Shown: positions 1 through 42,579 of the stretch, one piece after another
Layout: each line of letters starts with the position of its first letter
How positions within the stretch are numbered: position 1 is the first letter of the stretch
Source of the DNA: Hydrurus foetidus
Taxonomy: Eukaryota
Direction of reading: 5' to 3'
Assembly (NCBI GenBank): GCA_900617105.1
Contig: UYFQ01000626.1
Coordinates: 1-42,579, forward strand
Length of the DNA stretch: 42,579 bases
Position numbers and translations under genes: made by a program
The notes under the pieces: generated by a model
The model's database searches: none
Told to the model about the DNA's origin: nothing
The model's input: only the letters and a program-made list of their open reading frames with translations

Positions 1-1
1 T

Positions 2-3000
2 AACGACCGGTCCAACCGCGACAACGACCGCAAAGACAATCGCGACACCGATCGCAACGAAAACCGCGATACTCGCGACATCAAAGACCGCGGGTACAAA
101 GGAAAAAGTGAGTCCAAAATTCCGTATGCGGAAAATATCTCAGAAAATCGTATTTTGCCAAACATGCAAATGCTTTTATCAACAATCCTACCTAACGAGA
201 TTGATGATTACTTACAAGTAACAATATATCTTCCTCAGACCCAATCCCCGGCTACCGCTTTGGCGACCGAGTTGACAGCCGCGACCGCGACTCCAACCGC
301 AAAGACGACTCGCGCCAAGCGGAAAAAGACAAAGACAAAGATCGCCGCGATCGAGACCGGTCCCCACCCAAATCTTCCTCCAGCTATGGACCAAAATAGC
401 GGCATGGCCGCCCTAGCCCAAATCGACACCGGATGTCAAGTTGGGGACGTAATCAATCGTAGAGTCCTTCGGGGCCTACGTGGTGAACCCCAACTCCGCA
501 CCACCGACTCTCCCATATGGATGTGTTCGGGTCTAAATAATCAATGTATTGAATCCACTGCTGTCCTTGATATTGTTGTATCATTTAACAAAAACGGTTT
601 AAAATACACTTTTTCTCTTCCGGTGCGAATTGCAGAAGATTCCAAAGTCGACCTAATCTTAGGATTAGAGACTATAAAAAAACTAAATTTGGTTAAAATT
701 ATTCCGGAATTCTTCCAATCTCCGGAAAATATCCAAAATGAAAAAATTCACTCATTACAAAAACTGAATCAATCCACAAACATGGTATTAAACCACGTGG
801 ATGTTCCACTCATGCTAGAAGCAGAGTCGGACACAGTTACGAGTATTACAAGTCCAACCTTACCTCCGGTTATAACTAGCCGAGAGGGGATAAAACCCTC
901 AGACACAGACAGTCGATGGCAAGACGACCTGGTGGCTCGAGGTGCTTGTACAAGCAAGACATGCACTCCTTCATGTGGGTGTCCCACTAGCTTAGCTGCG
1001 GCAGCGGCTAGGCTAGATTCTGATGAGTTCATTTTGCACTCTACGGTCGAGGCAGCAGTTTTGTTGTCACCTCCCCGACAAAATGATTTAGGTGTAACAA
1101 CCGACAGGAGTCCGGAATTAGCTACTCCTACTCCCTCATCCAAGGCACCAGCCCAAACACGTGGTTTAGTTGCTGCTCTACTCCGGGAGCGTGAAGAACT
1201 CCCAGAGGTTCAACCCTTCGGACCCGAAGAGATTGACTACAAGTCGAAGGATACCTTCGCTCCTTTCCAAGACAATCCAACAGAGGACAAAATGTACCTC
1301 ATCGATCTTATACAAATCGATGGTACCCCTGAACAACAAGCTAAAATTAGAGCAATTTGTGTCAAACACATAAAGCTATTCAACAACAAACTCGGACCAG
1401 AGCCCGCGCGAATTCCCCCCTTTGGACTACCCGTACGGGATCCAGAGTGGAAAGTTTTCAAAAACCGCGTAGCACCACGACCAACGTCTACACGAAAACA
1501 AGTCGAAATCCGAAAACAAGTTGAAACTATGCTTGAACAGGGTATAATAGTCAAATCAGAGGCATCATACTATTCGCAAGTAACACTCGCGGCAAAGCCA
1601 GACGGTTCATACCGATTCTGTATAGACTATCGTCACCTCAACGACGCAACGGAATCAGCAAGCTGGCCAATCCCTAATATTAAACAAATGTTAGCGAGAT
1701 TAGGATCACAAAAAGCAGACACATTCGGTGTAATAGACCTCACAGCAGGATATCACCAAGCACCGTTAACTCTAAGTACACGTGTGTATACAGCTTTCAT
1801 AACATTTATGGGCATCTACCACTTTACCCGATTACCTTTCGGACCCAAAAGAGCCCCCTCATATTTCCAAGAAATGATGGCCTCAATAGTTCTTTTAGGA
1901 CTAATATACCAAATCTGTGAAGTATACCTCGACGACATCATCGTTTATGGTAATGGATTTGATCAATTCTGCGAGCGATTAGAAATACTTTTTCAACGCC
2001 TAGAAAACAAAAACATTTCACTAAAAGCCGCAAAGCTCAAGCTAAATGTGCGAATCGTTGAATATGTCGGTAGACAAATATCTAAAGAAGGTATAACTAT
2101 GAGTTCCAAAAAAATAAGAGGTGTGACCGACTTTCCTATGCCACGAAAGACGACTGAACTTAGATCGTTCCTCGGACTCACCAATTATTTTCGGGATCAT
2201 GTACCAAATCACTCCAACGTGGTAGCACCACTGCACAAAATCATAGATCACGCCGCGAAAAAGCAAACAATGCTAATCTGGACAGATGACGCCGCAAATT
2301 CTTTTCAAAAGATAAAAGATCTAATTGCAAAGAGTCCTTTATTATATTTCATACACGATACAGCGCCGATTACCCTCATGACCGATGCGTCAGATTACGG
2401 GATCGGCGGCTATTTGTATCAAGAAGTCGACGGAGAAAAACAACTCGTCGCTCTCGTAAGCAAGTCTCTTACCAAGACTCAACTGAAATGGTCAGTGATA
2501 CAAAAAGAAGCCTTCGCGCTATATTATTGCTGTACTTATCTCGACGCACTGCTGCGAGACCGTAAATTCACAATCCTAACAGACCACAAAAATCTTACGT
2601 TCCTAGAAAAGGATAAAAACGAGATGGTCGGCAGATGGCGTATGGCCCTGCAGGAACTAGAATATACGATAGGGTACATCCCGGGAAAACAAAATGAAAT
2701 TGCTGACGCAATGTCTCGCCTATGTAAAACAGAATGCCTCCTAAAACAGGAATAATAGCAGCAATTCTGACACACAAACCAATAACGACAGAGCAATATA
2801 ACCTAATTGCAACGTGCCACAACACAATAGTCGGACATGGTGGTGTACAACGCACACTGCGTAATTTAAAAAAACAAATAACATATGGCTGGGAATGCGT
2901 GACGCAGTAAAAACATTCATTAAAAATTGTCCGTGTTGCCAAAAGATGTCGGCAATGAAATATCCCATCAACGCATACCGGTACACAACCTCAACATACA

Positions 3001-4082
3001 AACCAATGGAATGCCTTAACATAGACTTCATTGGTCCATTTCCCGATAAAGGATATATCCTTGTTATGATCGACACCTTCTCAAGGTTTGTCGAACTCTA
3101 CGCAACACCTGATGCAACAGCCAAATCAGCGTGCACAGCACTTGTAGAACACGTGGGACGCTACGGCTCACCATGTATACTTCGATCAGATAATGGACCC
3201 CACTTCGCAAGCCACATCATAGATGAGTTTGTGAAGATTGTTGGAACAACACACAACAAAATATTACCATACTGTTCAGAAGAAAACGCTATCGTCGAGC
3301 GAATCAACAAAGAAATCAATCGCCATATAACCGCGTACGCATACGAACGCGCAACTACGGAAAACTACGCGGAAATATTACCGTTTGTACAAAGAATACT
3401 AAATTCAACCGTAAATGACCGGATGAAAGTGTCTCCAGCACAACTCATCTATGGCAACGCGATCGACCTCGACGCAAACATCCTCCTCCCGAGAGATGAA
3501 ATTGATTTAGATTTCGACTCACTCACACGGTCAACTGATAAAATGTTAACGTTGCAAGATGAACTCATCGAAATCACCGCACGTCTACTCAAAGAATCCG
3601 ACGACTTGCACAATGCACAACAACTTCCCAACGTCACACAGTTCGGAGTCGACACATTTGTACTTGTCCAACAAAGAACATCACCAGAAACGCGCATGCA
3701 CACACTGTGGCGCGGCCCAATGCGAGTTGTCAGCCACAACTTCGCAGAGTATACATTACTCGATCTGGTAACACACAAAGAAAAGTTGTACCACATGACC
3801 CAACTCAAACCGTTTCACTTTGATCCTACGCATGTCGATCCAACTGACATCGCTCGTAGAGATTATCTAGAATTCTTCATAGAGGAAATCCTAGAAATGA
3901 AAGGAAACATAAGAGCATACAAATCACTCACATTTCATGTGAAATGGCTCAACTACACCCATGAACACAACACATGGGAACCGTGGACACACATGCGTAA
4001 AGCGCAAAAAGTACATGAGTTCTTAATCAAAAAGAACCTCAAACACTTAATACCACGCGAATTCATCGCAAACTACCGTTAA
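2..4082 (+). CDS. pol: Gypsy Gag C-terminus plus Pol polyprotein (protease, RT, RNase H, integrase, chromodomain), two apparent single-base frameshifts
   Basis: Frame is open from position 2 (NDRSNRDNDRKD...) into ORF 155-2755: IDTG protease, YLDD RT, TDASDYGIGG RNase H. Bridging frame 2731-2875 carries CHNTIVGHGG. ORF 2895-4082 has CPCC, IDF/SDNG/IVER (DDE), WRGPM and chromodomain FFIEEIL..VKWLNY..NTWEP. Shifts at A-runs near 2725 and 2870. Confidence 0.93.
108..238 (+). other. Putative retainable intron at the gypsy gag/pol junction
   Basis: GTGAGT donor at 108, TCTTCCTCAG acceptor ending 238, CTAAC (192-196) and GTAAC (218-222) branch candidates; AT-rich between GC-rich flanks; 131 nt, stop-free in the pol frame. 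Confidence 0.7.
239..399 (+). CDS. gag: Putative terminal gag exon (Arg/Asp-rich tail) overlapping pol in another frame
   Basis: Spliced reading (N)PIPGYRFGDRVDSRDRDSNRKDDSRQAEKDKDKDRRDRDRSPPKSSSSYGPK-TAG continues the R/D/N-rich composition of the upstream Gag. Confidence 0.7.
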
Positions 4083-4274
4083 CCGGTAAAATAAAATAAA
4101 AATTGATTAACTAAATCATAAAGATTCCTCCTAAATTGGATCCTCAGGGATTTTAGGGAGGTTTATTCAGTAAGGAACTTTCAGTTCTCAGTCTGAAATA
4201 GTTATTCAATAAGTTAGTTACTTACTCATAGTTAGTATTTTGATGATGAATTTTGTCATTTAGTACACCCCTTT

Positions 4275-4287
4275 AGAGAGAGAGGGG
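4275..4287 (+). promoter_or_regulatory. Polypurine tract of the gypsy element
   Basis: AGAGAGAGAGGGG, 3 nt before TGTGAC at 4291. Confidence 0.85.
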
Positions 4288-4290
4288 CAC

Positions 4291-4495
4291 TGTGACCCGC
4301 ACACCCGTACGGGCTGTACGGGTACAGGCGTACGTTCGGACCGGATCGAGGACGATCCGATCCATCCGATTCATTGCCATGATACCTGCTGTGTTTACCT
4401 GTAAGCTAACCACATTGTTTCCATCGCAATAGCTCTCCCAGCTTCCTTTCCCTTACTCCCGCTCCCAGCCGTCCCGCTCCCAACGCCCAGATCCT
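4291..4495 (+). repeat. Start of the gypsy 3' LTR, interrupted
   Basis: Begins with TG just after the PPT; short hairpin ACCCGTAC/GTACGGGT (4303-4323); no matching GTCACA end seen before copia gag sequence starts. Confidence 0.65.
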
Positions 4496-4500
4496 GGCAA

Positions 4501-5318
4501 GGCCACACCGATGCAAATTTCATGGTATCAACAAAATGGAAGCGAGCATTGGAGCTATATGATAGAAATATACTTACTTTGAGAGAAGACCGAAAGCAAA
4601 TCTTCGGACTCATGCTAGGTCAGATTAGCGAAGCGTCGAAAGCGACGATTCGAGAAGCTGAAACGGGCCTTGCAGCCATGACTGCAGAGGACCCGCTTCT
4701 AATGTTGAGAGCTATAATCCTGACCCACCTCTCTGACCCGAGGTTGGGCGCCGATCAAAATCTATTGAGAGTCCGAATGGCTTACGAGACAGTCAAGATG
4801 GAGCAGAATGACGTGCTGAAGTACTACTATCAACGCTTTAAAGCGTTGAAATCCGGATACGAGGACACGATGCGGGCACTAGGGGTCATGCCCGAGTTCA
4901 ACGAGGCCATGACCGCACATAATGAACTTCTAACAGGGATGAAGTTCATGAACGGCCTGAACTCCGGTTACCGTCACTACGTAGAATACTACGAGCACGG
5001 ACTCAAGGATGGCCAGACACACTCGAGGATGCATACATCGAGATGGCTAAGGTCACTCCGAAGAAATCAGCAGCAGCAACACCACCCAACCAGACCAACG
5101 TTTTCGCCACGAAAACGGCTGGCGGTGAGAAAACTACTGATGCTGGTAAAGGGAAGGCTAGTGGGAACGGGGACAGAGGGAAGGGTGGGCGTACGTCGTA
5201 CGGCACCCGTCCCGGAAATTGCAATAAGTGCGGTGAAGCCGGACACTACTCCTATGAGTGTACGGCCAAGGATAGCCAAGCGGGTGCATCAGCACCCAGT
5301 GGAAAATCGGTAAACTAA
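4501..5318 (+). CDS. gag: Copia A Gag (partial), one apparent frameshift near 5008
   Basis: FGLMLGQISEAS aligns with copia B YGVILGQMSEAS; zinc knuckle CNKCGEAGHYSYEC in ORF 5043-5318. Confidence 0.88.
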
Positions 5319-8300
5319 GTAAGATACATTATTCCTCACCTGTACACTCACCCACACCTACACCTGTACATACACCTGCACTTACATCCACACACACACC
5401 TATACATACACTCACCGATCCTCCATGTTTGGCTGATTCCACTAGCGGAATTGAAACATGTGATCATATTGTTTTTAGTGCCAATACATGCAATATATAT
5501 AACATGATTAGAAGTAGACACATTCTGCTTGACACATGTGCTGGTGAGTCGGTTTTCAACGACTCATCCCTGCTGTATAATGTCGAACACGCACCCACAC
5601 CTATGATTGTTAGCGGGGTGAATCCGAAAGGAAAACCGCTGATAATCAAGAAACGTGGGGTGTCGGCGTTCGGCAACGTGTACTATAGCCCTGACTGTGC
5701 TGGTAACATATTGTCTTTTGGTAATGCTGTACGTGACTGTACTGATGTTAAGTACTTACATGACTATGATTGTTACATAGTGCAAGACGTCAGCGGAAAA
5801 TATTTTTATAGATTCTCACGAGATGAGGCTATGAATATATACCAATGTAATCTTGACACTATGGTAACAGAATGCATGCCAATGTTAGTTACGACAGTAG
5901 AGCAGAATAAAAAGAAGTATACAGTAAGAGAAGTCAGAGACGCGTCGTTAGCTAGAGACTATCAGCGTAGACTAGGATACGCTAGCGCAGCACAGACTAT
6001 TAAGTTGATATCCCAAGGGAATTTGACTAATAGCAAAGTGACTGCGCGAGACGTACATAGAGCCATTGATATATGGGGACCGGACGTGGGATCCCTTAAG
6101 GGGAAGACCACTAGTCACCAGGCCAAGTTAGAAGAGAAGTTACCATTGATAGGTATAGAGTACAAGACAGAACAAATCATGTACGTAGATATAATGTTCG
6201 TCAACCAGGTACCATATCTAGTATCAGTTGTTCAGCCCATCGAGTTCCTATACGTTAGCAAGTTAGCTAACCGAGAGCATAAGAGCATATGGAACAGCCT
6301 AAAGACTTCATTAGCAAGCATGGTAAAGTACAGATTCAGAGTTAAGATGATCCGAGTAGACGGCGAGGGTGCAATCAATACAGAATGGTTTCACAACAAA
6401 GTCGGCTTAAGAGGTATAGTACTAGACGTTACCGGAGCCGGAGAAGCCGTAGCCGTAGTCGAGCGTAAGATACGACACATAAAGGAGAGAGTAAGATCAG
6501 TAGTCAATTCTCTACCGTTCTCATTGAATGAGAAATTAGAAGTGTGGTTAGTTAAGTATGCAGTCAGTAGAATTGTATTAGCACCCACACGTAACTCACT
6601 TAATCACATCAGTCCACGAGAGAAATTAACTGGAAGAAAGTTAGACGTAGATAAGGAGATTAAACATGGTTTTGGTGATTATGTCCAAGTGCATAATGAT
6701 GTCATTGATAACTCTACCAAACCAAGAACAGCCGGGGCCATAGCACTTATGAGCTCCGGTAATCTAGAAGGTTCATGGTACTACATGCTGTTAGCTAACG
6801 AACGTATTGTAAAACGTACTAAAGCGACTGTACTACCTATGCCTGATGAAGTGATATTACACTTGAATGTATTAGCTTCAAAGAGAAAAACTGCCAATGT
6901 TAAACAGCCTGTATTTGAGAATAGTAGTCACATTGTATTCGATGATGATGACGATGTTGAAGATGATAGTGCTTACATTGGTGATGTTGAATATGAAACT
7001 GTCGATGAAAATGCTAACGCAGATTACACCGATGAGATTATTGAAGATAACGATCACAATGATAACGAAACACATCTTGAATCACAACTCGATATGTCTG
7101 ATGAAAATCACCCACCCACATTAGATGAGTATGTAGATGACACACTATATGTGAGTGACACTACATACGACAATGACGAACTATATTATGATGACACACA
7201 TGATGACACACATGTACCCCAACCTAAATATGATCAAGCACTGATAGATGACATATTTGGCATAAGTGATGATGAAGATGACTTTGCTGATGTAACTGTA
7301 CACACTGAAGTATTCACACCACCTGCCACCATAATTGAAACCGCATATGACCCACCCGTTGTAAACTCACCCGTGTTACGTAGAAGTGGTAGAAATCACC
7401 AACTTGGTAAATGGGATAAGAAATATGTTGGTAATCTGTTCTACAACCACACTCACCTGTACAAAATGACTGTTAATGAGGGAATTAATAAGTTAGGGGT
7501 GATAGCTGTTGATTCCATTACATCTGAATTGAAACAAATGTGTGATAAGAATGTTTGGGAAGGTGTAACTTACGAATCCCTCACCCCACAACAAAAACGC
7601 ACCATTATACCTAGTAGCATGTTCTTGAAAGAAAAGTATACTGCTGATGGTATGTTTGAAAAACTGAAATCTAGACTAGTAGCCGGTGGGCACTTACAAG
7701 ATAGAGATGTTTATAACAATGGCGCCTCACCTACTGCTAGCACATCTAGTGTATTCATGCTGACTGCAATTGCTGCTAGACAGAAGCGTGCTGTCGCCAC
7801 TGTTGACTTCCCCGGTGCATTCCTGAATAGTGATATGCCGCTGACCGGCGACCATGTTGTATACATGCGTCTGAATAAACAACTGACTGCTGCACTAATT
7901 AAGATTGATGCAACATATAACAAATACCTGAATAACAATGGAACATGTATTGTTAAACTTAAGAAAGCTTTATATGGATGCGTTGAATCTGCTAAACTAT
8001 GGTATGATAAGCTATCCAGTGATTTGATCAAATTCAATTATACTGCTAATGAATATGACATATGCGTATTCAACCGAACTGAATCGGATAACACACAAAC
8101 ATCACTCGTAATTCATGTTGATGATATGATAATTACTGCTTCAAGTGAATCTCGCGTTGATGATGTTATAAAACAAATTGAAACTATATATCCCGGTCTA
8201 ACCAAACACAGAGGAAAAGTTTTAAATTACATAGGCATGACTTTCGACTTCAGCAAGGAAAGCTGTGTTAAAATGACTATGGAAGGCTTCGTACAAGACC

Positions 8301-9186
8301 TCATTGAGGGGTGTAAGGATATGCCGGGCACGGCAAACACACCCGCACGAGCCAATCTATTCACTATACCTGATGAATCCGACTCACCCTTACCTGATAA
8401 TCTGCGTGAGCGTTTTCACTCTATTACAGCGAAGCTACTCTACCTGAGTAAGAGGACGAGGCCAGACATTCTGACTGCCGTAGCGTTCCTGACAAAGAGA
8501 GTGCTGAGGCCCCAAAGGGACGACTACGACAAGCTGACCCGTACGATACAGTACATACGGGGTAGTCAGCATACGGGTATAACATTTGAAGTATATGAAC
8601 CTATTCATGTTATTGCATATATCGATGCATCCTTTGCCATACATCCCGATATGAAAAGTCACACAGGCAGCGTAATCACCCTTGGGAAGGGAGCGATCTA
8701 CGCCAAGAGCGGTACTCAGCGCCTCATGACAAAGTCCAGCACGGAGGCCGAGCTAGTCGCACTCAGCGACTCCGCCAACCAAGTTCTGTGGACCAGGAAC
8801 TTCCTGGAGTGCCAGGGACACCCTCAACCTCCCGCCTTAGTGTATCAAGACAATCAGTCTACGATACAGCTCATACGTAACGGTCGCTCGAACAGCGAAC
8901 GTACGCGGCACGTTGATATACGGTATTTTTCCTGCACGACAGAATCAGTACAGGCGATGTAGACATTGTGTACCTACCTACTACTGACATGATTGCAGAC
9001 ATTCTAACCAAGCCACTGCAGGGTGAATTGTTCAAGAAGCTCAGGAAGGAGCTGCTCAACACTTCACCACCTACCCTCACGTACGCAGATGGATGCAAGA
9101 CTGAGGACCGTACGGACTCCGCACCGACACCCGTACGCACCAATTTCAACCCACGATTTCCATATTTTACGTCCAAGAAGAACTAA
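5309..9186 (+). CDS. pol: Copia A Pol (protease, integrase, RT, RNase H), apparent frameshift in the T-run near 8928
   Basis: LLDTCA protease; YVDIMF/RVDGE/VVERK integrase; KSRLVAGG, LKKALYG, IHVDD RT; YIDAS, STEAE, YQDN, MIADILTK RNase H; frame open back across the gag stop. Confidence 0.93.
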
Positions 9187-9265
9187 TACCCACCGACGAA
9201 GAATCCATCCGACATGCTACCCCCCTCCATCTTACCCTTCTACAACGCCGCTGTCCGCTTCAGCT

Positions 9266-9401
9266 GAAGACTGAACACTCAAGACCCCAAGACTCCGTCA
9301 TTCCTACTGCCCCCACATCCGACTCTACTACCCCATCAGCGCGCGTCATGACGAAGACTGACCACTCAAGACACCAAGACTCCATCATTCCTGCTGCCCC
9401 C
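9266..9401 (+). repeat. 49-bp direct repeat pair in the copia A 3' UTR
   Basis: 9266-9314 and 9353-9401, 4 mismatches, 87-bp period. Confidence 0.85.
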
Positions 9402-9814
9402 CTCCATCACTTTTCTTCTACCCCATCAAGTGCGACTCAAGAAAACCCTGACAGAGACATAAAGAGCGAGGACCGTGGACCCAGACCCAAGACCCGATTC
9501 CGGAATCAGATAGTATAACAAGTCAGAAAATTATTTTAAGTGTAATCTTTTGCGTGTTACATAAAGTCTTTTTAGAATTGTTTAACTCTATGCTCATTCG
9601 GATCAGTCAGACCTTATGATACTAATATTACCCTGCATGCAATAAATTATCTAACGTCACAATTAAGGTCAACCCCACCATTACCCTACTTCCCTACAAT
9701 ATAAAATCATGTTATGATACACCATTTGTGAAGCTTCAAGTAAACGGAGCATTTTTGAATTCTATTGCGTTTTCATTCGCGTACACCAACCCGACGACTC
9801 ACGCCATAGGCGTG

Positions 9815-10179
9815 TGTCGGAATAACTAATGAGCTAAGTAACCGTATAAGTTATTACGTATGTACATTTGATGACGTTTCGTACGTCGTGTGCCGTGTGG
9901 TGGTCGCTACTCCACCGGTCCAGGTTCCTTTAACCCAGGAACATCAAAAAGACGAAAGTGCAACATGTTTGACTGTGCGGGACAGCGCGATCTTTTCGCC
10001 TGTCTCCATGAACGATGTAAGCGATGTTGCATCGTTAATTACCTTAATACTCACACCAGCAGAGCTTTCGCCTTGAGCCCGGGAAAGTTGCTAGCGCACG
10101 TGTTGAACCTGCAGAAGGAGCGCGTACCCAGGAAGGATATAGTTTTCCATTCAGTGGAAACTGATCCTTAGTTACGACA
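9815..10179 (+). repeat. Copia A 3' LTR (365 bp)
   Basis: Starts TGTCGGAATAACTAA after CATAGGCGTG (compare CATGGGGGTG before the copia B 3' LTR); ends TTAGTTACGACA, giving TGTCG...CGACA inverted termini; no second copy available to confirm. Confidence 0.72.
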
Positions 10180-11101: not shown

Positions 11102-11878
11102 TCAGGGGGGACCTCCTAACAGCTCGAGCAGAACAAGACCCAGTTCCTCTGTGCTATGCACCATGTGAGAGAAAGCTGGCTTGACTGTCTCCATGGGATG
11201 ACTGCCCCACGTTACACCAACGCTCGGCATACCAGCATTTGCTGCTGCTTGACCATCGCTTGGGGAGTCGCCGACATAAATACAGCAAGAAGGATCAATT
11301 TGCAGTGTGTTACAAAGCTGTAGCAGACCGTCACCACTAGGCTTCGCAGCTGGCACCTCGTCAGCACCCAAGCCGATCACAAAATCATCCGTCACACCAT
11401 TCACCAGTAACACTGCCCTGACGTATGCACCACACGCATTTGATAATGCAGCTTGGCGGAGAGTAGGATGCTCTCTGAAAAGTAACTTTAGCACCTCTGG
11501 TATGCCAACGTAAAATGCTGCTGTCTCCATTGATACAAGTTTGACGTAAAGTTCGTCAAACTGATTTCCCAATGCAACGCCACAAACATCGTCGGGATCA
11601 CCAGTGCAGTGCCAAGCCAGTCGACGTGGGGTTGTCAGCTTTGTCCCCATGTGGTAAGCCTCCTCGCAAATCTCTGGCAGCCCGTTCGCTCTCATTACAG
11701 CATTTGTACTATCAAAGCCCAGTTGAGTAGAGTATGCCAAGGTTCCATCAACATCCCACAGGACTGCTCTTAAATTTGGAATATTAGGCATTGTAGCTGT
11801 TAAGCACGTAGCCCCACGGCTAAGCATCAAAACCGCCGCTATAAGAGCATGGCTCGCTCGCGTAAGAAGTAGATGCAT
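11102..11878 (-). CDS. HAD-superfamily hydrolase, phosphoglycolate-phosphatase-like, intronless
   Basis: Motif I WDVDGTL, II LSN, III AKP, IV VGDSPSD; ATG at 11878 chosen, alternatives at 11827 and 11791. Confidence 0.92.
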   Translation of the reverse strand: MHLLLTRASHALIAAVLMLSRGATCLTATMPNIPNLRAVLWDVDGTLAYSTQLGFDSTNAVMRANGLPEICEEAYHMGTKLTTPRRLAWHCTGDPDDVCGVALGNQFDELYVKLVSMETAAFYVGIPEVLKLLFREHPTLRQAALSNACGAYVRAVLLVNGVTDDFVIGLGADEVPAAKPSGDGLLQLCNTLQIDPSCCIYVGDSPSDGQAAANAGMPSVGVTWGSHPMETVKPAFSHMVHSTEELGLVLLELLGGPP

Positions 11879-12012
11879 TTCATGAGAGTTGTTATGCAAC
11901 TCAAATTCCAAGTTATTTGCTGCACTCCGCTCTTTGCAAAAGTTTTGAGAGGGGCAACAACAACAACCTATGCCAGTTTACTGTTACTCTCTATACTCGA
12001 CAACGGGGGTAG

Positions 12013-36385: not shown

Positions 36386-36544
36386 CTGTGCCGGTCACAA
36401 CTAAACGGTGCCGCAAAAAAAAATTTGCGGTATATTCGTGTTTTTGACCGCAGAATCAAAGTAACAGTTATTTTGACCTCCGTCAAAAACACGAAAAAAC
36501 CTCCCCTCAAAATAAGTTCTCCCGTTTAGTTATGACCGGCAGAA
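36386..36544. mobile_element. MITE-like element with nested inverted repeats
   Basis: TGCCGGTCACAACTAAACGG (36389-36408) pairs with CCGTTTAGTTATGACCGGCA (36522-36541); inner TTCGTGTTTTTGAC/GTCAAAAACACGAA; preceded by TA. Confidence 0.78.
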
Positions 36545-36545
36545 T

Positions 36546-36824
36546 TGTTGTGATATCCGGATTAGACTAGGATCCTGTACCCTGTGTGATGTATGATTGT
36601 TTTCATGCACGGGTGTACGTACATTCAGCAATAACATTGACCGCAACCCTCGCACTCATGTTATGCTACCTAGATGTAATCGACAGCATGTCACTGTCGT
36701 TTAATCCAACTTACCGAATACAACGTCTTCTTCTCTTTTGAGCAAGCGTTGCTAGCAGTCGGAAGTGCAGGGATCGTTTGGGAACTCGGAAGAAATTCCG
36801 TGTAAATCGCCCAGATTTCCAACA
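36546..36824 (+). repeat. Copia B 5' LTR
   Basis: TGTTG...CAACA; 3 substitutions versus 42301-42579. Confidence 0.95.
36691..36703 (+). promoter_or_regulatory. Predicted initiator/TSS (TCA, +1 = A36693) and 11-nt self-primer ACTGTCGTTTA
   Basis: TCACT initiator-like context; 36693-36703 is exactly complementary to 36825-36835. Confidence 0.6.
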
Positions 36825-36835
36825 TAAACGACAGT
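36825..36835 (+). promoter_or_regulatory. Non-tRNA primer-binding site TAAACGACAGT
   Basis: Directly abuts the LTR end, lacks TGG, reverse complement of an LTR-internal 11-mer. Confidence 0.75.
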
Positions 36836-36879
36836 CATCCTTAGATAGATTAGCTAGAAGTTGCAAAAGCTTTGCAAGG

Positions 36880-38062
36880 ATGAGAGGACGAGGCGATGGA
36901 AGATTCCAGTCCCGTGGCGGGGGCAGGGGTCGATATGGTAGGGGGCAAGGCGAGCCCCATAAACCCATAGTAAAAGGTAGGAAGCCCGAGGTAGGTGCTT
37001 ACCTGGATCTGCCACGAGGCCAAGCGGCAGATCCGGAAGCCGTGTTGAAATGGCTTGAATGTTTTAGAGTATATATGTATAGTACTTATGAATCTTCTGT
37101 TAAAGAAATCATTGGTATAGATGGGGTCCTCACGATTACGAAGAATTCGTGGAACCAGACGACCCGCCGGAGGAGCCGGCATGGTCGCCATAGAGAGATG
37201 GAAAACAGCACGTAAGAAATATGCTGCTAATATTGAATTACATAAAAAAGACTGTGCAAAATTGTATGGTGTAATATTAGGTCAGATGTCGGAGGCCTCA
37301 ATCACAAGGGTGAACGAGATGCCGGCAGGCAAGCGAGCTATAGAGGACTGTGATCCTCTAGAGGTGTTGACATGTGTGGTTGCTACACACATGAACAACA
37401 AAAGGTATGGAGATGTATATAATATGACTACAGCGATTAGAAACTTTTACAATAATAAAATGTATCAAAACGAGGATCTAGCTGCATATTTTAGTAGGTG
37501 TAGGACGCTTCTATTTGTCAAGAGCGAGTCATACAGGATCGCCGACGAAGAAGAGCCCATCCACACAGATGAGTTCCATGCTGTATTATTTGTAACTGGA
37601 CTTAATTCAAACTATTTAGAATATATCAATACGTTTAAAAATAAGGTTCGGCCATGGCCGCAGACCATGGCCGATGCCAACCAGGACGCGGCCAACTTCC
37701 TTATGGGAAGGCCCGTCCACGGAGGAGCTCCCCCGAACTCGGAGAAGCGAAACGTTTTCGCGGCCAGTCGGGGTGGGAGAGCGGGTTCAGCCGGGAGAGG
37801 CGGCAGAGGCCGTGGCAGCGGAGATAGCGGAGCTGAGAAGGGAGGATTCGACACCCCCGGCAGCGAGAGCAGTAGGAGGGCAGGCACTCCCTATAGGGAT
37901 AGGGAGGCCACCCCACAGAAGGAGAGAGGTGGTGCCGTACAGGAGTACGGTACCCGTTACGGAAGCTGCAACAACTGCGGGGAGGAGGGCCACTATAGTT
38001 ACGAGTGTAAGAAGCCCCCGAGGAAGAACGCACCTGCGCGTCACACTTCCTCGGAAAAGTAA
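36880..38062 (+). CDS. gag: Copia B Gag with RG/RGG-rich segments and zinc knuckle; apparent frameshifts near 37130 and 37170
   Basis: MRGRGDGRFQSRGGGRGR start; CNNCGEEGHYSYEC; homologous to copia A Gag. Confidence 0.9.
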
Positions 38063-41000
38063 GTCCCTTATATGCTTTTTTACCTGATTCACTAGCTAAG
38101 GATGTAAATGTTCCGTGTGGGGAAACCGGACTGCATGACGTATTTGCAACGTCGACCGGTTACCCTGCGTTTGTGCCATTGTTAGATAAAGCATGCAGCT
38201 TGGAGAATTTTTGTCCACTGAACAGTAAAAATTGTGGGGGTGACCCTGTGATTTTTAGTGCGAATGTATATACACACAGTTCCACATTTACAGAGAGACA
38301 AGTGTTGTTAGATACATGTGCAGCAGAGTCAGTATTTTGTAGTGGAGATTTATTTTATAGTATTATGCCGTCCGCTACCCCGATGATTATTAATGGAGTA
38401 AACCCTCAGGGGAACCCTTGATAATCACGGAGTGTGGCGAGACGGACTTCGGAACAGTTTACTACGATAGCAATTGTATAGCAAATATATTATCCTTCGG
38501 TAACATAGTCAGCTCGAGCGAGTCAGTTAGCTATGACAGTGACCAGGATTGTTACAAAGTTAGGATGATTAAGTTAGGACCTGTATATAGATTTGTCCAT
38601 GATCAGTCTACGAACATATATCTATGCGACTTAGACAGAAATGTCAGTTACAAGAATGTATCGTTCGATAAATCGATCATGGTCATGACAGTTAAGGATA
38701 AGAAGAAACTGTATACAGCTAGACAAGTTAAGTCAGCAGAGTTAGCTAGAGAGTATCAGAGAAAGTTAGGTTACGCCAGCCCAGGACAGTTAATTAAATT
38801 AATAGGTCAGGGGAAATTAGATAAGAGTGACATAACAGCGCAAGATGTAGTTAGAGCATTAGATATTTTTGGACCAGATTTGGGTTCCCTTAAGGGGAAA
38901 ACAACTAGTCACAAAACTGAGTTAGAGGAAGAGATGCCAGTAGTAGATAGGCAGTTCCTGAACCAGGTTATGTACATAGATTTGATGTTTGTGAACTCGA
39001 TACCCTATCTAGTCACAGTTACAAATCCCTTAGAATATGTGATGATATGTAAACTCTCACGCAAAAATAAGTCTTCCCTATGGATGAACTTAGAGAGCAA
39101 CATACATCACATTACTAAGTATGGATTTAAGATAACTATGATAAGAATAGACGGAGAGTCGGCAGTTAACACTATAAGTTTTGAGAGTAAGCTAGCCGCA
39201 CTAGGTATTATATTAGACAGTACTGGAGCAGGAGAAGCAGTAGCTGTAGTTGAGAGGAAGATCAGAGTGATAAAGGAACGTGTTCGTGCCATCATTAACA
39301 CGGTACCTTTCTCACTGAGTGAGCTACTAGAAAGTTGGTTACTTAGATATGTTGTGAACAGATTAAATTTAGTACCAACTAGAAACAGTGTAGCTTACGT
39401 CAGCCCCAGAGAGAAATTATACGGTAGAAAGATTAACGTAAATAAGGAGCTGAAACACGGTTTCGGTGATTACGTACAAGTACATACCGACTCCGTGGAC
39501 AACTCGACTAAACCCAGATCACAGGCAGCAATAGCATTAGTTAGTGCAGGCAACCTAGAAGGGTCATGGTATTATCTGCTGTTAGCTAACTTAAAAGTAG
39601 TGAAGAGGACAAAGGCCACTAGCCTACCCATGACAGATGATGTGATCAGCTACCTCGATAAGTTAGCATCTGAGAGGAAATTAAATATGTCAGTTAATGT
39701 TAAGCAACCTATTTTCGAACAGAGTAACCAAATCCTCGAAGACGATGGAAATGATTACTCCAACGATGAATTTGAGTTGCCGACACCTGACATGATAACA
39801 CCGTATAGTTACCCTACAGAAGACGAATTTGTGCATCATGAGATAGCAAATAATTTTGACTCATACGATGGCAATTCTGATGTAGCTTACGAATCAGAGT
39901 TCGAACAATTAACAGAATACATACCAAATGATATATACGTTAATGAAGGAGAGGATGTAGTGTATGACGATACACCAACTGACCCCGATGCATTAATGAA
40001 CGATATATTTGGTGTAGACAGTGATGATGAGGTAGATACCCCCACCACAGAAAATAGCAAGTCAGAGGAAATTCTAGATAAACAACCCAGACGTAGTGCT
40101 AGAAACCATCAACCAGGTAGATGGAACAAGAGATTAGTAGGTTTAAGTATACCTAGCTACAAAGATTCAGTTATGTGTAAGTACATGATGAACATGACCG
40201 TAACAGAAGGAGTACAGAAATTAGGCGAGATAGCCGTAGATTCCATTAAAAAAGAGTTACAACAGATGTGTGACAAGAATGTGTGGGAGGCAGTTCACCT
40301 CAACAGTCTTAGTTACAATCAGAGGAAAAGTATCATAACCAGCAGTATGTTTTTAAAAGATAAGTATACAGCAGATGGTAAATTTGATAAGCTAAAATCT
40401 AGACTTGTGGCAGGAGGTCACTTACAAGATAGAAACATATATGATAACGGTTCATCACCAACTGTTAGCACCACTAGCGTATTTATTGTTGCTGCAATTG
40501 CTGCTAGTGAAAATCGAGCGGTCGCTACGATCGATTTTCCTGGTGCATTCCTCAACAGTGATATGCCACTAGACGGTGACCATGCAGTGCTGATGAGACT
40601 GAATAAATATTTGACTAACATATTAGTTAGCATTGACAAGTCCTATCAGAAGTGTGTAAATGAGAAAGGAACAGTAGTAGTTAAGCTTAAGAAAGCATTA
40701 TATGGATGCGTAGAGTCAGCTAAGTTATGGTACGATAAAATATCATCAGACTTAACACAGTTAGGCTATAAGGTAAATCCATCAGACATATGTGTATTCA
40801 ATAGGACTGAGCTAGATTCCACTCAGACTACTTTAGTTATCCATGTTGATGATATGATGATCAGCAGTAGGGATGAGAAGCGTATAGATAGTATAATTTC
40901 AGAGATAGAAAACTATACCCAGGCCTGACTAAGAGTAGAGGCAGAGTGTTGAATTATATAGGTATGACTTTTAACTTTGAGCAGTTAGGCAGAGTTGTCA

Positions 41001-41791
41001 TATCCATGGAAGGTTTCATAAAAGACTTGTTAGACGATTGCATAGAGATTGTGGGGGTGTCTAGAACACCTGCCGACGATAATCTATTCAAGATCGATCT
41101 TAACAGTCCTTTATTGAAAGATAAAGAACGTGAGAGATTCCACTCACTAACAGCTAAGTTGTTATATTTAAGTAAGAGAACCAGACCAGACATACTGACA
41201 TGTATAGCATATCTAACTAAAAGAGTCTTAGAACCTAGAACCGACGACTGGAATAAGTTAGCGCATACTATACGGTATATCAGAGAGACCAGAGCTACGC
41301 CGCTGACCCTAGAGGTAGATACTCCGGTTAAGGTTATAGCCTATATAGATGCATCATACGCTGTACATGCAGATAAGAAGAGTCACACTGGCTGTATTAT
41401 AACACTAGGTAAGGGAGCAATATATGGTAAGAGTTCCACTCAGAAATTAAATACTACGTCTAGCACAGAGGCAGAACTAGTAGCTATGACTGAAGCAGGT
41501 AATCAGGTTTTATGGACTAGGAATTTCCTTATCCATCAAGAGTATGAGGTAGGTCCAGCTTTAATTTACCAAGATAACCTATCCACAATTCAGTTAGTTA
41601 AGAACGGTAGGTCCAACAGTGAAAGAACTAGACACATAGACATCAAGTTTTTCTTCCTGCATGACCGAATTAAATCAGACCATATTATTGTAACCTACAA
41701 GAGTACTAAAGAAATGATTGCAGATTTGCTGACCAAGCCACTGCAGGGGAAGCTATTCCAAGAGCTACGTGACCAAGTGCTCAATGTATAA
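38056..41791 (+). CDS. pol: Copia B Pol; apparent frameshifts near 38414 and 40910
   Basis: LLDTCA; YIDLMF/RIDGE/VVERK; KSRLVAGG, LKKALYG, IHVDD; YIDAS, STEAE, YQDN, MIADLLTK. Confidence 0.94.
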
Positions 41792-42291: not shown

Positions 42292-42300
42292 ATGGGGGTG
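42292..42300 (+). promoter_or_regulatory. Short polypurine tract of copia B
   Basis: ATGGGGGTG immediately before the 3' LTR. Confidence 0.7.
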
Positions 42301-42579
42301 TGTTGTGATATCCGGATTAGACTAGGATCTTGTACCCTGTGTGATGTATGATTGTTTTCATGCACGGGTGTACGTACATTCAGCGATAACATTGACCGCA
42401 ACCCTCGCACTCATGTTATGCTACCTAGATGTAATCGACAGCATGTCACTGTCGTTTAATCCAACTTACCGAATAGAACGTCTTCTTCTCTTTTGAGCAA
42501 GCGTTGCTAGCAGTCGGAAGTGCAGGGATCGTTTGGGAACTCGGAAGAAATTCCGTGTAAATCGCCCAGATTTCCAACA
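42301..42579 (+). repeat. Copia B 3' LTR
   Basis: Direct repeat of 36546-36824. Confidence 0.95.

What the first reader, a model, noticed from the sequence alone, without database searches (positions are those of the whole stretch)
36693..36835. Ty1/copia element with a Tf1-style self-priming PBS instead of a tRNA PBS
Seen: the 5' LTR ends CAACA at 36824 and is followed with no spacer by TAAACGACAGT (36825-36835). This lacks the TGG expected for pairing with a tRNA CCA end and does not resemble the half-tRNA-iMet PBS. It is the exact reverse complement of ACTGTCGTTTA (36693-36703) inside the LTR. Pairing is exactly 11 nt with mismatches on both sides, and the first A sits in a TCA initiator-like context. 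Rough chance expectation is 279/4^11, about 7e-5. Known: S. pombe Tf1, a Ty3/gypsy element, primes minus-strand synthesis with the first 11 nt of its own mRNA, released by RNase H. Inference: this copia lineage reached the same tRNA-independent priming; I know of no well-characterised copia example.
Basis: partly seen in the sequence, partly recalled or inferred. Interest (0 to 1): 0.92.

Follow-up and report, generated by a model that had tools for sequence, protein, structure and literature searches.

The report
Self-priming copia jumping gene, golden alga
A broken copia-type jumping gene, likely from a golden alga, has a primer site that pairs exactly with a stretch of its own terminal repeat instead of a tRNA end, and dozens of distant relatives keep this pairing with different letters, so the lineage likely starts copying itself with the front end of its own RNA.

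Summary
Observation confirmed. The 279-bp LTR ends at 36824 and the next 11 bases are the exact complement of 36693-36703 (27 of 200,000 shuffles). Of 53 related metagenomic loci with LTR and primer site assembled, 48 have a perfect self-match of 10 nt or more just after the LTR. The other five have 9 nt (2), 15 nt after an atypical LTR end (1) or 15 nt with one mismatch (2). Among 42 non-redundant elements, 36 primer sites differ, none has TGG, and in 35 pairing stops at an initiator-like C|A. The lineage includes a diatom element; this host looks chrysophyte. Tf1-like self-priming is the best explanation (0.85); start site and RNase H cut are inferred, not shown. I found no paper on this algal lineage. 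This scan noted the same trait before in diatom genomes; this window adds a likely non-diatom host, in a clade with mostly 9-12 nt matches. The copy itself is frameshifted.

The parts
36546..36824 (+). 5' LTR, 279 bp, TG...CA
   Evidence: 3' boundary also table 7
36691..36693 (+). TCA initiator-like motif; predicted transcription start at or one base after its A
   Evidence: same register in 35 of 42 non-redundant elements; motif from PMC4686930 and PMC3599244 passages; start site not measured
36693..36703 (+). predicted self-primer (first 11 nt of the RNA), exact complement of the primer site
36771..36820 (+). predicted U5 stem-loop just before the primer site
   Evidence: prediction only; not conserved as a measurable duplex across relatives
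36825..36835 (+). primer-binding site, no TGG, flush with the LTR end
36880..38062 (+). gag with CCHC zinc knuckle, frameshifted near 37134-37163
38035..41791 (+). pol (PR-IN-RT-RH), separate frame from gag, frameshifted near 38410 and 40913
42292..42300 (+). short G-rich polypurine tract abutting the 3' LTR; the same G-rich motif abuts TG in most relatives
42301..42579 (+). 3' LTR, ends at the window edge; carries the second copy of the 11-mer at 42448-42458

Best explanation
This is a frameshifted Ty1/copia retrotransposon whose primer site pairs exactly with 11 bases inside its own LTR, and it likely primes reverse transcription with the 5' end of its own RNA, as Tf1 does. Shown: the LTR limits, the exact pairing, its persistence with changed letters across a deep lineage, and that pairing stops at an initiator-like TCA. 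Inferred: (1) transcription starts at the A of that TCA or one base later, so the 10-11 paired bases are the RNA's 5' end; (2) the RNA loops back and pairs with the primer site, enclosing 121 bases; (3) the element's RNase H cuts after the paired stretch and frees a 3'-OH, by analogy with Tf1; (4) RT extends it across U5 and R; (5) plus-strand synthesis copies the primer back into the primer site, which would explain why the two sequences change together in pure Watson-Crick register. This copy cannot encode intact proteins and could only be moved in trans.
For: Exact 11-nt match, p about 1e-4. Folding from 36693 gives this helix in both the minimum-energy and the centroid structure, z -2.43. 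Relatives at 29-49% integrase identity to this element: 48 of 53 testable loci pass the published criterion of 10 or more perfect bases within 0-5 nt of the LTR end (criterion from PMC6317226). Region-matched shuffles had mean best matches of 1.4-9.2 nt. The 42 non-redundant elements fall in 21 clusters at 50% identity and have 36 different first-9 primer-site sequences; none has TGG. Near-sister compensatory changes: L038 vs L042 (one A-U to G-C swap), L056 vs L058, L024 vs L025. C|A lies at the 5' end of the pairing in 35 of 42 (TCA in 29), against 49 of 414 for chance inverted matches in the same regions and a majority in 17 of 21 clusters. Three loci examined afterwards all passed (10, 15, 14 nt; two with TCA). 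Tf1 mechanism from review passages (PMC7175516).
Against: No transcript start, cleavage product or cDNA was observed; all runs found are contigs and the one attempt to lay RNA runs gave no result. The Tf1 'pretzel' flanking duplexes are not general: U5-side duplex 0 of 42 at p<=0.05, downstream duplex 6 of 42, of which 3 are in one clade; this copy p=0.053 for the joint duplex. Seven of 42 lack C|A at the end of the pairing. Three relatives pair over 25-33 nt, longer than a Tf1-type primer. L009 and L012 (9 nt) are individually weak (9 and 13 of 150 shuffles). Loci are assembled metagenome contigs, some chimeric (L001, L056), and LTR limits in single-LTR circles were set by motif.
Confidence: 0.85

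Rival explanations
1. The primer is element-derived but is not the capped 5' end folded back in cis. It comes from a second RNA copy in the particle, from the copy of the same 11-mer in the 3' R region, or from a small RNA processed from the LTR.
For: The 11-mer also lies in the 3' LTR (42448-42458). Loop length varies from 72 to 436 nt and the Tf1 flanking duplexes are not conserved. This would also explain covariation.
Against: Pairing stops at an initiator-like C|A in 35 of 42, which a 5'-end primer predicts and a 3'-R or small-RNA primer does not. The cis helix is the predicted ground state.
Confidence: 0.08
2. The helix is a structural or regulatory fold of the leader (packaging, translation, dimerisation), and priming uses something else, as proposed for the PBS-less fungal GalEa elements.
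For: Fungal GalEa copia lack a PBS and carry a conserved hairpin of unknown role (PMC5445492 passages). Matches of 25-33 nt in L033, L051 and L064 look more like hairpins than primers.
Against: The 3' arm starts within 0-3 nt of the LTR-terminal motif in 48 of 53 loci, exactly where minus-strand synthesis must start. No tRNA site is left at that place.
Confidence: 0.05
3. A host tRNA fragment primes and the LTR match is chance or a by-product. The 11-mer contains CU-GUC-GU, which could be read as a tRNA-Asp anticodon loop (my reading of the sequence; no such tRNA was found).
For: Half-tRNA priming exists in copia (Osser, Bryco, Bianca). No host genome is held, so host tRNAs could not be searched; the window has none.
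Against: 36 different AU-rich primer sites each match their own LTR. Rfam finds nothing at 36300-37200.
Confidence: 0.02

Closest known systems
Tf1/Tf2 of Schizosaccharomyces pombe and the Tf1/sushi group (Ty3/gypsy chromoviruses)
   Same: Primer site flush with the LTR end and complementary to LTR sequence; 11 nt here as in Tf1 (PMC7175516 passage).
   Different: Other superfamily (copia domain order, RVT_2). The three-duplex 'pretzel' described for Tf1 (PMC10085805 passage) is not conserved across these relatives. Match length varies by clade. Tf1 is proven by experiment; this is not.
TAR lineage of plant Ty1/copia (Houba, Osr-1)
   Same: Copia with predicted self-priming by the same sequence criterion; 89% of 203 elements (PMC6317226 passages and Additional file 5).
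   Different: TAR is a green-plant lineage, 79% single ORF. Here the host looks chrysophyte, gag and pol are separate, and six intact or long relatives hit no Pfam copia family other than RVT_2 (30-82 bits) and zinc knuckles. I infer a distant lineage; no tree with TAR could be built.
CoDi elements of diatoms (Maumus 2009, PMC2806351; copia branch 1 of Llorens 2009, PMC2774666)
   Same: The only relative with a species name is a Fragilaria crotonensis protein, 36% identical over the integrase region. It sits in a 100%-supported clade with loci that have 14-16 nt self-matches.
   Different: This element lies in a separate 99%-supported clade of 16 rows with mostly 9-12 nt matches. The passages and section read from the two papers do not describe priming; the Maumus supplement could not be read.
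Fungal GalEa copia with a Conserved Hairpin Site (PMC5445492)
   Same: Copia without a tRNA primer site.
   Different: There the authors found no LTR sequence complementary to the site; here the complement is inside the LTR.

Membership tests
Ty1/copia | pol order PR-IN-RT-RH with copia-type RT | tested here: met
   RVT_2 hit; motif order in intact relative P0002; window maps to it at 63-87% identity
Ty1/copia | paired TG...CA LTRs and polypurine tract | tested here: met
Ty1/copia | target-site duplication | not testable with these tools
   window ends on the last LTR base; no genome held
Tf1/sushi group | Ty3/gypsy chromovirus (RT-RH-IN order, chromodomain) | tested here: not met
   copia order, no chromodomain hit
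Tf1/sushi group | primer site complementary to own LTR, no tRNA site | tested here: met
Tf1/sushi group | complement is the first bases of the mRNA | tested here: inconclusive
   initiator-like register in 35 of 42; no start-site data (one search gave no result)
Tf1/sushi group | three-duplex pretzel around the primer site | tested here: inconclusive
   this copy p=0.053; U5 side 0 of 42, downstream side 6 of 42
Tf1/sushi group | RNase H cleavage releases the primer | not testable with these tools
   needs biochemistry
TAR (plant copia) | 10 bp or more of LTR complement starting 0-5 bp after the LTR | tested here: met
TAR (plant copia) | green-plant host | tested here: not met
   neighbouring host gene: best named homolog Ochromonas, 70%; one gene only
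TAR (plant copia) | RT/RH/INT phylogeny inside the TAR clade | not testable with these tools
   reference FASTA of PMC6317226 too large to read; no named plant copia among fetched proteins
CoDi (CoDiI / CoDiII) | RT phylogeny with named CoDi families | not testable with these tools
   no CoDi-labelled references; only one Fragilaria protein
CoDi (CoDiI / CoDiII) | diatom host | tested here: not met
   host gene closest to chrysophytes among named hits; the Atlas's nearest eukaryotic cluster was mostly diatom, a weaker signal
fungal GalEa | palindromic hairpin site with no complement in the LTR | tested here: not met
   complement lies in the LTR

The most novel reading that the evidence does not exclude
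A whole deep branch of algal copia elements, spanning diatoms, golden algae and other aquatic eukaryotes, primes itself. It would be a third origin of self-priming, independent of Tf1/sushi and plant TAR, or a survival of an ancestral state. It uses primers of clade-specific length (about 10-11 or 14-16 nt, possibly up to 25-33), fixed by an initiator at one end and the LTR end at the other, without the Tf1 pretzel.
Probability: 0.6. Interest if true: 0.72.

Novelty: new variant of a known kind. Interest (0 to 1): 0.58.

Why it matters
Self-priming is proven only for Tf1-type gypsy elements and merely predicted for one plant copia lineage. A large, old algal copia lineage with the same signature shows that escape from tRNA priming is not rare. 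It gives dozens of natural compensatory variants and two primer-length classes with which to ask what an RNase H needs to cut an RNA-RNA duplex. It bears on the proposal that tRNA priming came late in LTR evolution (PMC3601003 passage). In practice, annotation tools that require a tRNA site will miss or mis-score these elements, and elements without a tRNA site should escape silencing by tRNA fragments (inference).

Tried and rejected
No whole genome is held, so no copy census, target-site duplication or host tRNA search was possible. Viral contigs gave no relatives in 4 scans. Genome contigs gave 2 loci filed under bacterial genome assemblies; L078 has an integrase identical to that of a metagenome locus, so I treat them as binning contaminants. 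Transcript start: all 24 runs listed are contigs; contigs cannot show a start, and the RNA lay gave no result. Small word shares in RNA runs were not used as evidence. Tf1 pretzel as a lineage feature: not supported. tRNA or Rfam family at the locus: none. A fixed 11-nt primer for the lineage: rejected. L020's 10-nt hit is a local hairpin 33 nt apart with no recognisable LTR and was not counted. Rows dropped before the 42-element count: 8 near-identical twins (L001, L007, L017, L023, L026, L046, L067, L076), the second LTR of L056, truncated L057 and the 5 untestable loci. The careful tree did not finish; the quick tree is reported. A splice-site search at the gag-pol junction found no consistent donor in relatives. 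PMC1563812 is not held.

Full report
Observation. The window ends in a 6.0-kb LTR element. Its LTRs are 36546-36824 and 42301-42579, 279 bp with 3 differences and TG...CA ends. The 11 bases after the 5' LTR (36825-36835) are the exact reverse complement of 36693-36703, with no pairing at a 12th base. Dinucleotide shuffles of the LTR gave such a match in 27 of 200,000 trials, or 150 of 200,000 with start offsets 0-4. The window stops on the last LTR base, but contigs of a public run leave the sequence right after 36824 (5 contigs), so the 11-mer is outside the LTR. Pfam finds a zinc knuckle in gag and RVT_2 in pol. Against intact relatives the order is PR-IN-RT-RH, and this copy has one frameshift in gag and two in pol. 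It is a defective Ty1/copia.

Host and relatives. No genome is held. A HAD hydrolase at 11102-11977 has an Ochromonas protein as its best named homolog (70%; Mallomonas 57%), so the host is likely a chrysophyte; this rests on one gene, and the Atlas's nearest eukaryotic cluster was mostly diatom. Runs holding the element are largely freshwater biofilm, sediment and glacier metagenomes by their records (4 were laid). Pol homologs number 105, nearly all metagenomic; the only one with a species name is from the diatom Fragilaria crotonensis, 36%. Four gag homologs at 53-62% identity have N-terminal extensions that read through the LTR. They show the same peptide across the primer site, and two of them also across the 11-mer, so close families keep both sequences (inferred from protein).

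Covariation. An integrase alignment pulled 77 metagenome loci and 2 genome-collection loci. Many are circles with one LTR. I applied one rule: the longest perfect complement starting 0-5 nt after any ACA, between the polypurine tract and gag, against 150 shuffles of the same region. It was run on 55 loci and, without shuffles, on 3 more afterwards. The other 21 of 79 lack the region (14 too short; 7 lack one arm). Five of the 58 were untestable (L020, L028, L040, L043, L072: no complete LTR recognised). Of the 53 testable loci, 48 have 10 or more perfect bases. L009 and L012 have 9. L050 has 15 after an LTR that ends in ACT, which the rule missed. L066 and L067 (one family) have 15 with one mismatch. 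After removing twins, 42 elements including this one remain; they form 39 clusters at 90% and 21 at 50% integrase identity and have 36 different first-9 primer-site sequences. None has TGG. Close pairs show compensatory changes: L038 and L042 differ by one A-U to G-C swap on both arms; L056 and L058, and L024 and L025, differ likewise.

Where the pairing stops. In 35 of 42 elements the 5' end of the LTR arm falls at a C|A, 29 times TCA. Chance inverted matches in the same regions do so in 49 of 414 cases, and 17 of 21 clusters show it by majority. TCAH is reported as an initiator-like motif in a diatom, with +1 after the A (PMC4686930, passages), and YCAYTYY in an oomycete (PMC3599244, passages). 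This is independent, indirect support that the arm is the RNA's 5' end, to within one base. Counting from that A, lengths cluster at 10-11 (13 elements) and 14-16 (19 elements). In the quick integrase tree this element lies in a 99%-supported clade of 16 rows with mostly 9-12 nt matches (one of 14, one of 18); the Fragilaria protein lies in a separate 100%-supported clade with 14-16 nt matches (deep forks are weak, midpoint root).

Mechanism. Folding an RNA that starts at 36693 closes the 11-bp helix in both the minimum-energy and centroid structures (z -2.43; 5 of 200 shuffles as good), with a stem-loop just before the primer site. In Tf1 the first 11 bases pair with the primer site and RNase H cuts between bases 11 and 12 (PMC7175516, passage). 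I infer the same here. Copying of the primer during plus-strand synthesis would regenerate the primer site from the LTR and explain strict covariation; this step is from general knowledge of LTR replication, not from a call. Tf1 also needs two flanking duplexes (PMC10085805, passage). These are not general here: 0 of 42 on the U5 side and 6 of 42 downstream at p<=0.05, and p=0.053 for the joint duplex in this copy. Unexplained: L033, L051 and L064 pair over 33, 25 and 28 nt. Not shown: the start site, the cut, or any cDNA. The RNA lay gave no result.

What is known. Neumann et al. 2019 (PMC6317226; passages, section 10 and Additional file 5 read) predict self-priming for the plant copia lineage TAR (89% of 203) and cite an earlier proposal for Houba and Osr-1. 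So this is not the first copia with the signature. TAR is a green-plant lineage, mostly single-ORF. This element has separate gag and pol frames and a likely chrysophyte host, and its relatives score weakly on RVT_2 and hit no other copia Pfam domain apart from zinc knuckles. I infer an independent lineage near the diatom CoDi elements, but could not build a tree with named TAR or CoDi references; the REXdb FASTA was too large and the CoDi supplement unreadable, and either may bear on this. Fungal GalEa lack a primer site but also lack an LTR complement (PMC5445492, passages). Literature searches for self-priming with copia, diatom or stramenopile terms (listings, with passages from PMC2806351, PMC2774666 and PMC3601003) found no description for this algal lineage; subscription journals are not covered. 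This scan's notes already hold 32 findings with these words in at least 6 genomes; most of those shown are described as diatom or diatom-type. None matched this sequence or the word chrysophyte. I consulted them after my own covariation result.

Verdict. The feature is real, lineage-wide and best explained by Tf1-like self-priming (0.85). It is a new variant of a known kind: known mechanism, predicted precedent in plant copia, new lineage with unusually strong comparative support. Interest 0.58.

Noticed in passing
window 36387-36542: A 155-bp element with terminal inverted repeats (18 of 19 matching) ends 3 bp before the 5' LTR; it is high-copy in the runs laid, probably a MITE.
   Followed up: partly
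window 4510-10150: A second copia of the same clade (61% integrase identity), truncated in gag. Its 3' LTR starts at 9815 and holds a C|A-started 11-mer at 10031-10041 that resembles the arms of the short class; its primer site is not in the window.
   Followed up: partly
window 1-4534: 3' part of a Ty3/gypsy chromovirus (RT, RNase H, integrase, chromodomain) with a likely 3' LTR at 4291-4534, apparently inserted into the gag of the second copia.
   Followed up: no
window 38035-38260: gag and pol overlap in different frames. A GTAAGT at 38059 and a TTTTTAG ending 38258 would fuse them in frame if spliced; a -1 frameshift is the alternative. In L009, L012 and L013 an ATG follows the gag stop within three codons in the same frame.
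   Followed up: partly
L050 (LTR after RNase H end at 4933): LTR with AG...CT ends instead of TG...CA, still with a 15-nt self-match. L022, L024 and L031 appear to end in CAATA.
   Followed up: partly
L033, L051, L064: Perfect LTR-primer site matches of 33, 25 and 28 nt, much longer than in other relatives; unexplained.
   Followed up: no
L078, L079: Copia elements of this algal lineage filed in bacterial genome assemblies, probably binning contamination.
   Followed up: no
window 11102-11977 (-) and 25188-26087 (-): Host genes: HAD-family hydrolase and a Ufd2-core ubiquitin elongation factor fragment, among microsatellite-rich introns.
   Followed up: partly
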